DNA of 64,000 nucleotides from assembly GCA_964016885.1 (NCBI GenBank), contig OZ024754.1, positions 32,550,001 to 32,614,000 on the forward strand. The letters run 5' to 3'. The notes under the pieces were generated by a model that searched no databases, was not told the origin of the DNA, and saw nothing but the letters and a program-made list of their open reading frames with translations. This DNA is from Eledone cirrhosa. Its lineage: Eukaryota. A program made the position numbers and the translations under genes. Below, in pieces: positions 4,114-4,602 of the stretch; position 1 is the first letter of the stretch; each line of letters starts with the position of its first letter.

Positions 4114-4236
4114 GGAGGTGAGTTTTATTGTAGTACAATAAAGCAATGCAGATATCGGATAAGTAGCACTCTACAGTTTGTAGGACTGGATTATACATAA
4201 TATATAAGATCAAAAGATGGTTAAAAGAGTTCCATG

Positions 4237-4307
4237 TATTTTATTATGCGCATTTCAAAAACGAATATCATCATGCAATAACATTTGCGTTTTCGTCAGA
4301 TAAAATA
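4237..4307 (-). ncRNA. Type I hammerhead ribozyme, family B
   Basis: Reverse complement of 4411-4481; core CTGACGA/GAAA/ATA intact. Confidence 0.85.
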
Positions 4308-4410
4308 GGGAGACATGATATGAAGGTTAAAAAACACTTGTGAATAGTGCATATGTTGATTTAAAATTGCACTATTCACAAGTGTTTTTAACCTTCATAT
4401 CATGTCTCCC

Positions 4411-4481
4411 TATTTTATCTGACGAAAACGCAAATGTTATTGCATGATGATATTTGTTTTTGAAATGCGCATAATAAAATA
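4411..4481 (+). ncRNA. Type I hammerhead ribozyme, family B (minimal palindromic stem III)
   Basis: Stem I TATTTTAT/ATAAAATA; CTGACGA 4419-4425; ~15-bp stem II; GAAA 4462-4465; TGCGCA palindrome; predicted AUA cleavage after 4473. Confidence 0.88.
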
Positions 4482-4511
4482 CATGGAACTCTTTTAATCA
4501 TCTTTTGATCT

Positions 4512-4602
<91 letters not shown>

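What the first reader, a model, noticed from the sequence alone, without database searches (positions are those of the whole stretch)
4197..4522. Family B apex loop occurs in flip and flop orientations
Seen: at 4351 the long arm (..gtgaatagtgc) is followed by ATATGTTGATTTAAAATT then GCAC. In the independent copy at 30625 the same long arm is followed by AGTTTTAAATCAACATAT then GCA, the reverse complement with one substitution. The apex is therefore shared by two insertions rather than made afresh at each, and its loop is inverted relative to the long arm. Established: flip/flop loop isomers mark hairpin termini resolved during rolling-hairpin replication (e.g. parvoviruses). Inference: a hairpin DNA intermediate, or a symmetric master copied from either strand.
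Basis: partly seen in the sequence, partly recalled or inferred. Interest (0 to 1): 0.8.

Follow-up and report, generated by a model that had tools for sequence, protein, structure and literature searches.

The report
Penelope-like retroelement hairpin, not flip-flop end
The 'flipped loop' is the ordinary front end of a ribozyme-carrying jumping-gene fragment: one insertion holds two overlapping copies head to head and the other a single copy, as expected of Penelope-like retroelements and not of a virus-style rolling hairpin.

Summary
The letters are as reported, but copy 2 (30388-30646) is not a hairpin. Copy 1's plus strand runs colinear with copy 2 straight through the 'loop' (6 differences in 166 columns). 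The loop is the element's native 5' sequence, carried in copy 1 by the short inverted arm and joined at TGCA. In RAD reads of two individuals, 95-96% of reads continue through the loop in copy-2 orientation, and copy 1's junction is not listed. Junctions share a 5' boundary near CATATG (30642-30644), but the partner breakpoints scatter (30416, ~30476, 30516, 30626, ~30639). A fixed apex with both isomers common is not seen. Family B carries a type I hammerhead motif, sits in (TA)n, and has an optional ~80-nt 3' tail. These are cis hallmarks of Penelope-like element pLTRs; no coding partner was found. Best mechanism: both nicked target strands prime cDNA, one at each end of the tail (shown in vitro for a lizard element), and the two cDNA ends are then joined. 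Extra finding: a covarying bulged stem-loop opens the tail in several otherwise dissimilar families. A fold-back hairpin opened off-centre remains a minority rival.

The parts
4032..4109 (.). (TA)n target run at the tail end of copy 1
4113..4351 (-). copy 1, tail-bearing (long) arm; native positions 21-259
4113..4192 (-). about 80-nt 3' tail, absent from the short arm; opens with a bulged stem-loop (about 4192-4165; one mismatch here, intact in copies 28037 and 57649)
4237..4307 (-). type I hammerhead motif (stem I 8 bp, CUGACGA, long stem II, GAAA, palindromic UGCGCA, UA cleavage site); activity untested
4348..4351 (.). TGCA overlap at the inversion junction (2 nt if the native base 5' of CATATG is not G)
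4352..4367 (+). 16-nt 'loop' = native 5' sequence of the element, read on the short arm
4348..4522 (+). copy 1, tail-less inverted (short) arm; native positions 1-177, ending in the internal TA-rich stretch
4411..4481 (+). second hammerhead motif, on the opposite strand
4523..4598 (.). (TA)n target run beyond the short arm
30388..30646 (-). copy 2: single non-inverted unit with tail, 5' end at the same boundary, between TA runs; hammerhead motif at 30582-30512
27955..28051 (-). copy 3: tail only, between TA runs
57561..57728 (.). copy 4: inversion with a different junction; inverted arm native 116-180, tail arm native 163-259, 2-nt overlap

Best explanation
Family B is the pseudo-LTR plus tail of a hammerhead-bearing Penelope-like element (PLE) that inserts in (TA)n. 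Steps: (1) the GIY-YIG endonuclease nicks both strands of AT-rich DNA [shown in vitro for the lizard PLE PAc; inferred here]. (2) Each 3'-OH primes reverse transcription at one of two internal RNA sites that bracket the tail [shown for PAc; here inferred from arm ends at native ~177 and 259]. (3) The cDNA begun just 5' of the tail stem-loop usually runs to a preferred stop at the self-complementary CATATG; the cDNA begun at the tail end stops at variable places, displacing the first cDNA from the same RNA or copying a second RNA [inferred]. (4) The two cDNA 3' ends are joined at 0-4 nt of overlap and filled in [inferred], giving a head-to-head inversion whose 'loop' is the 5' sequence reached by only one cDNA. 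Priming from one strand only gives plain copies such as copy 2. So loop orientation records which cDNA went further; it is not a flip/flop isomer pair of a fixed terminus. Confidence in the PLE-type structural reading is about 0.85; the figure given is for the two-strand priming mechanism.
For: Loop colinear with copy 2. Reads across 30625 to 30629: 726 to 692 (X18), 763 to 732 (X19); X1 contig depth shows no step at 30626. Junctions 30416/30642, 30516/30642, 30475/30629; loose ends behind 30643 that match the sense strand from ~30476 (159 and 175 reads); an X1 loose-end consensus behind 30644 resembling a loop-less fold at CATATG (15 contigs, agreement 0.63). Junctions that start at or beyond the tail boundary have little or no duplication, like twin-priming products. 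Hammerhead motif: 9 hits against a mean 0.05 in 40 shuffles, all in TA-flanked repeat families. One arm tailed in 14 of 14 hairpins; short arm within 14 nt of a dinucleotide run in 12 of 14 and -1 to 10 nt from the tail stem-loop in 10 of 10 tested. Short arm reaches further 5' in 4 clear and 2 tentative of 8 scored, long arm in 1, 1 undecided. Arms of copy 1 share 3 alleles that copy 2 lacks. Two family-C junctions have 0 overlap and loops of about 2 and 6 nt. Literature: PMC11167929 (both strands cleaved and extended, two RT start sites define the tail), PMC8557442, PMC3846280, PMC4209133.
Against: No PLE ORF in the window (0 GIY-YIG or PLE-type hits among the 128 longest of 309 non-repetitive frames) and no related locus in the three contig collections, so the link to a PLE protein is untested. 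Rfam does not call the hammerhead, its fold is not unusually stable (z about -1), and family B has A-U rather than the usual G10.1-C11.1 pair. The tail (about 80 nt) is longer than the published 30-40 nt. Classical twin priming gives a deletion, not a 150-bp duplication, so strand displacement or a second RNA must be assumed. Arm starts are often within 40 nt of each other at different apex sites, which fold-back explains more simply. RAD reads sample few loci, X18 and X19 are one study, and X1 may be the window's own source.
Confidence: 0.55

Rival explanations
1. Fold-back and off-centre opening: one cDNA reaches its stop, snaps back on a short inverted match and is copied into a hairpin-capped end; a nick at the TA site 5' of the tail and strand-displacement synthesis transfer the hairpin, turning the loop onto the short arm (a terminal-resolution-like step inside PLE insertion).
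For: Explains the duplication, shared alleles between arms, short loops at several apex sites and the excess of loops on the short arm. PMC8557442 ascribes the tail to endonuclease resolution of an intermediate; PMC3846280 infers self-priming on an antisense template.
Against: Junctions with 0 overlap and a loop of about 2 nt (C29114) or none (40238; fold at CATATG) are poor primers for a snap-back. Junctions whose tail arm starts beyond the proposed nick site exist (30416/30642). Tail-less single copies exist (10506). PMC11167929 shows the tail boundary is an RT start site.
Confidence: 0.2
2. Self-priming antisense RNA, or a read-through transcript of an existing genomic hairpin, is the template, so junctions are inherited from a few masters.
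For: Proposed for rotifer PLEs (PMC3846280); also puts the extra 5' sequence on the short arm.
Against: Each scored hairpin in the window has its own junction; copy 1's junction is not listed in four runs.
Confidence: 0.1
3. Post-insertion change: recombination between arms inverted the loop of copy 1, and copy 2 is a hairpin that lost its short arm into the TA run.
For: Copy 2 has CA after CATATG, a base rare in reads; palindromes beside microsatellites are unstable (general knowledge).
Against: One informative base only. Predicts loop orientation near 50:50, whereas 6 of 7 decided cases (2 tentative) lie on the short arm; does not explain tails or junction scatter.
Confidence: 0.08
4. One reading: fixed hairpin terminus with flip and flop isomers from rolling-hairpin replication, or a symmetric master copied from either strand.
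For: Two copies share the boundary; the 18-mers are reverse complements.
Against: Copy 2 is no hairpin; at most about 5% of reads leave at 30626 and C at 30645 is seen in 0 of 47 and 4 of 89 reads; other junctions exist; no hairpin has two equal ends; no Rep-type Pfam hit.
Confidence: 0.03

Closest known systems
Endonuclease-positive Penelope-like elements (Penelope/Poseidon, Neptune, Nematis): pLTR with inverted 5'-truncated copy and tail
   Same: About 260-nt unit, type I hammerhead motif with palindromic helix III, head-to-head inverted copy, tail on one end only, AT-rich or microsatellite target (PMC8557442, PMC3846280, PMC4209133; the last notes paired motifs 100-700 bp apart on opposite strands).
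   Different: No ORF seen; tail about 80 nt against 30-40 nt; bulged stem-loop at the start of the tail; clade cannot be assigned.
PAc (Poseidon of Anolis), in vitro system, PMC11167929
   Same: Two fixed 3' ends downstream of the hammerhead; AT-rich target; both strands extended.
   Different: PAc starts in an AC-rich stem-loop about 111-118 nt into the ORF; the joining step was not shown; no sequence comparison with PAc was made here.
Naiad PLEs
   Same: (TA)n preference, inverted copies, tail; reported from cephalopods among others (PMC8557442).
   Different: Naiads lack canonical hammerheads; family B has one.
L1 twin priming and dual priming (PMC2837659)
   Same: Both target strands prime; inverted cDNAs joined at short overlaps.
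   Different: L1 products delete sequence at the junction and prime at variable sites; here arms overlap by up to about 150 bp and the second start is fixed.
Parvovirus hairpin termini (flip/flop; recalled, no paper read)
   Same: An imperfect palindrome whose unpaired part can be read in two orientations.
   Different: No fixed terminus, no Rep, scattered junctions, asymmetric ends.
Non-LTR retrozymes (bioRxiv 10.64898/2026.07.22.740005)
   Same: Short non-coding units with a type I hammerhead, related to PLE pLTRs.
   Different: Those are head-to-tail tandems; these are singles or head-to-head.

Membership tests
EN+ Penelope-like element | ORF with PLE-type RT and GIY-YIG endonuclease adjoining the repeat | not testable with these tools
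   No such ORF in the window; no genome held; no loci in contig collections
EN+ Penelope-like element | Type I hammerhead in the repeat with palindromic helix III | tested here: met
   Own descriptor, 9 hits against 0.05 shuffled; fold. Rfam gave no hammerhead hit; G10.1-C11.1 absent in B; cleavage untested
EN+ Penelope-like element | Inverted 5'-truncated copy head to head with the direct copy | tested here: met
EN+ Penelope-like element | Optional 3' tail at one end (30-40 nt in the literature) | tested here: met
   Tail on one arm in 14 of 14 hairpins; 40-90 nt in the 12 where measured, about 80 in B: longer than published
EN+ Penelope-like element | AT-rich or microsatellite target | tested here: met
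   All 4 B copies lie between dinucleotide runs, TA in 7 of 8 flanks
EN+ Penelope-like element | Target-site duplication | tested here: inconclusive
   Cannot be read within (TA)n
EN+ Penelope-like element | Head-to-tail partial tandems | tested here: inconclusive
   None for B in the window; 4 copies only
Rolling-hairpin terminus (parvovirus type) | One fixed apex | tested here: not met
Rolling-hairpin terminus (parvovirus type) | Both loop isomers common | tested here: not met
   95-96% of reads pass in one orientation; neither full hairpin form listed
Rolling-hairpin terminus (parvovirus type) | Associated Rep/HUH gene | tested here: inconclusive
   None among 128 frames of this window; rest of genome unseen
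Fold-back or MITE DNA transposon | Two equivalent terminal inverted ends | tested here: not met
   0 of 14 hairpins symmetric
Non-LTR retrozyme | Head-to-tail tandem units each with a hammerhead | tested here: not met
   No tandem among 4 copies

The most novel reading that the evidence does not exclude
PLE insertion passes through a real DNA hairpin: the cDNA folds back, and the element's nickase opens the hairpin off-centre at a TA site positioned by the conserved bulged stem-loop, flipping the loop onto the tail-less arm. That would be a parvovirus-like terminal-resolution step inside a retrotransposon, readable from loop polarity in thousands of genomic copies.
Probability: 0.15. Interest if true: 0.7.

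Novelty: new member of a known kind. Interest (0 to 1): 0.35.

Why it matters
The flip/flop claim falls, but the locus bears on an open point: how PLEs make their head-to-head ends (PMC8557442 and PMC11167929 call these steps undefined or unvalidated). This genome holds many such junctions (14 hairpins in 64 kb), so loop polarity, overlap length and arm divergence can be tallied to choose between two-strand priming and fold-back. The covarying stem-loop at the start of the tail is a candidate signal for the second RT start; I did not see it described in the papers read (search; the supplementary figures of PMC11167929, which show RNA folding, were not read and may bear on it). Eleven short-loop hairpins cover 3.1% of the window, a possible large source of double-stranded RNA if transcribed.

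Tried and rejected
No genome held. Exact-pattern scans for family B found 0 loci in viral, metagenome and prokaryote genome contigs. Rfam over the window gave only microsatellite-driven miRNA matches below gathering score among the 150 of 556 rows shown and no hammerhead for 4390-4520. Pfam on 128 frames: RT fragments at 5316-5906, zf-RVT at 37563-38939, a C2H2 finger, no PLE or Rep domain. No RNA holder listed for the stretch. Earlier findings: nothing returned. A protein search with the 37563-38939 ORF, meant to place the host broadly, gave no close named hit (best identity 66%); the host stays unidentified, and its likeness to octopus repeats is recalled only. The ungapped arm comparison was out of register and was replaced. 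MAFFT misplaced copy 4 and the stem-loops, so no formal pair count was run. MFE folds of whole tails recover the outer stem in 3 of the 5 motif-bearing tails and are mostly not more stable than shuffles. Literature searches for a hairpin or self-priming cDNA model with GIY-YIG and for second-strand junctions since 2021 found nothing relevant. Rejected: MITE or fold-back transposon (asymmetric ends), fold-back read artefact (arms differ), miRNA.

Full report
Setting. The window is AT-rich, microsatellite-laden eukaryote-type DNA. No genome is held. The host was not identified; some repeats look like octopus repeats from memory only, and one search did not settle it.

Observation. The quoted letters are right, and the two 18-mers are reverse complements with one mismatch. 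But copy 2 has no second arm: after CATATG come two bases and a TA run. Read on the plus strand, copy 1 from 4348 to 4512 aligns with the minus strand of copy 2 through the 'loop' with 6 differences in 166 columns. So the loop has the same orientation in both copies relative to the sequence it is natively joined to; in copy 1 that is the short arm. Taking copy 2 as reference, the short arm of copy 1 covers native positions 1-177 and the long arm 21-259, overlapping at TGCA. The arms differ at 3 of 145 columns and share 3 alleles that copy 2 lacks.

The window holds four family-B copies: copy 1, copy 2, a tail-only piece (27955) and a second inversion (57561) with its junction at native 116/163. 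I laid 4 of 20 listed runs on copy 2. Reads at 30625 and 30629 number 726 and 692 in X18, 763 and 732 in X19, so at most about 5% leave at the flip breakpoint; aligning the flipped loop through would cost 10 mismatches in 18. X1 contig depth rises to 30604-30621 and falls only towards 30644. No joint like copy 1's is among the 4 listed. Listed are 30416/30642 (97 reads, 1 start), 30475/30629 (12 and 8 reads), 30516/30642 (3 reads) on opposite strands, and one 99-base skip. Loose ends behind 30643 (159 and 175 reads, agreement 0.62-0.67) match the sense strand from about 30476. Behind 30644, X1 gives a mixed consensus resembling a fold centred on CATATG (15 contigs), and X18/X19 give one other sequence (216 and 254 reads), either native upstream DNA or a single locus. 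Position 30645 reads A in 47 of 47 and 85 of 89 reads, so the GCA that suggested a second arm is private to copy 2. Limits: RAD reads sample few loci, both RAD runs are one study, X1 may be the window's source, rows under the tool's thresholds are hidden, and 54 variant and 192 loose-end rows were not shown. Within these limits, one side of the junction clusters at 30642-30644 and the other scatters. The shared thing is a 5' boundary, not an apex.

What the element is. On the strand that runs towards the tail, family B holds a type I hammerhead motif: 8-bp stem I, CUGANGA, long stem II, GAAA, a one-pair stem III closing the palindrome UGCGCA, and UA before the cut. A relaxed descriptor found 9 such motifs in the window against 0.05 in 40 shuffles, in families B, D and E, with changed but still paired stems and other near-palindromes in stem III. 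Rfam did not call it, and B lacks the usual G-C pair at the base of stem II. Of 14 hairpins examined, all have one arm extended by a tail (40-90 nt in the 12 where my coordinates were at the arm ends), and 12 have the other arm within 14 nt of a dinucleotide run. Tails of families B, C, D, E and H open with a bulged stem-loop: 16 hits against 0.15 in 100 shuffles. The descriptor was drawn from those five families, so the count is circular for them; two hits (22456, 43537) came from sequences not used, one with a different 6-bp upper stem. In 10 of 10 hairpins tested, arm pairing ends -1 to 10 nt from this stem-loop.

Comparison with what is known. PMC8557442 (passages): PLE insertions often carry an inverted 5'-truncated copy and a 30-40-bp tail at one end; Naiads prefer (TA)n but lack canonical hammerheads. 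PMC3846280 (passages and Discussion): inverted pLTR overlapping the direct one, palindromes at the junction, self-priming on an antisense template proposed. PMC4209133 (first two of four parts): minimal type I hammerheads in pLTRs with palindromic helix III, also paired on opposite strands 100-700 bp apart. PMC11167929 (three of four parts; supplements not read): purified PAc cuts and extends both strands of AT-rich DNA, starts RT at two internal RNA sites, and the tail is the stretch between them; later steps unvalidated. PMC2837659 (passages): twin priming gives inversion with deletion; dual priming proposed. bioRxiv 10.64898/2026.07.22.740005 (first of five parts): retrozymes as PLE derivatives. 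PMC5625713 (passages): octopus has an unusually high share of near-perfect dsRNA-forming loci; relevant only if the host guess holds. Parvovirus flip/flop is recalled, not read.

Mechanism. Shown here: two fixed 3' ends, a preferred 5' boundary, scattered partner breakpoints, overlaps of 0-4 nt, and the extra 5' sequence on the tail-less arm in 4 clear and 2 tentative of 8 scored hairpins (1 opposite, 1 undecided; the remaining hairpins had no native reference). Inferred: each nicked target strand primes a cDNA at one end of the tail, the cDNA with the head start reaches the boundary, the other stops earlier, and their ends are joined. Single priming gives copy 2 (with tail) or tail-less singles such as 10506. 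The duplication needs strand displacement on one RNA or a second RNA, which is assumed. Fold-back with off-centre opening explains duplication and short loops as well but fits zero-overlap, near-zero-loop and far-downstream junctions poorly. Why CATATG is the boundary (RNA 5' end, RT stop or pLTR edge) is unexplained; family D has a similar AT-rich motif near one of its apexes.

Verdict. The structure is a known PLE hallmark, assigned on cis features alone, since no coding partner could be examined. New member of a known kind; interest 0.35, mainly for the tail stem-loop and the testable loop polarity.

Noticed in passing
window 21865, 22456, 28239, 29237, 29458, 31013, 40105, 54732, 55000, 57649 (+); 1889, 28037, 30792, 33471, 43537, 55815 (-): Bulged stem-loop (NCTC, 2-6-bp upper stem, 2-nt bulge, GAGN, RCY) with covarying pairs at the start of the tail in several families; candidate signal for an RT start
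   Followed up: partly
window 29114-29309, 28117-28310, 31742-31876, 30720-30858, 10506-10562, 9438-9500: Family C begins inside what looks like stem II of a hammerhead (GAAAC ... GTC half present, CUGA half absent); five copies share the same 5' boundary
   Followed up: partly
window 1813-2401 and 2932-3444: Family D inverted pair, 97% identical over 515 columns, 530-nt spacer of unknown origin; tail on one arm only
   Followed up: partly
window 40238-40415: Perfect 178-bp palindrome with no loop and a 59-nt one-sided tail
   Followed up: no
window 4600-4884, 28331-28645, 21954-22140, 54568-54800: Further hairpin families with one-sided tails of 40-78 nt; family A shows no hammerhead core (Naiad-like, untested)
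   Followed up: partly
window 37560-38939 (-): 459-codon open frame, C-terminal part of a non-LTR retrotransposon with zinc-binding and nuclease-like region, next to a trinucleotide run; R4/Dong-like by recall; 1,693 relatives at E<=1e-30
   Followed up: partly
window 5316-5906 (+): Broken reverse-transcriptase fragments (Pfam RVT_1)
   Followed up: no
window 9710-9995, 10286-10936, 22637-22841, 37286-37482, 39017-39551, 51597-51905, 58064-58252: A frequent SINE-like dispersed repeat, about ten copies
   Followed up: no
window 49860-50286 and 56863-57294; 50573-51091: 94%-identical 430-bp inverted pair, one overlapping a C2H2 finger fragment; a 24-bp tandem array beside it
   Followed up: no
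window 4113-4200 (-): The family-B tail is an open frame of about 29 codons; chance not excluded
   Followed up: no
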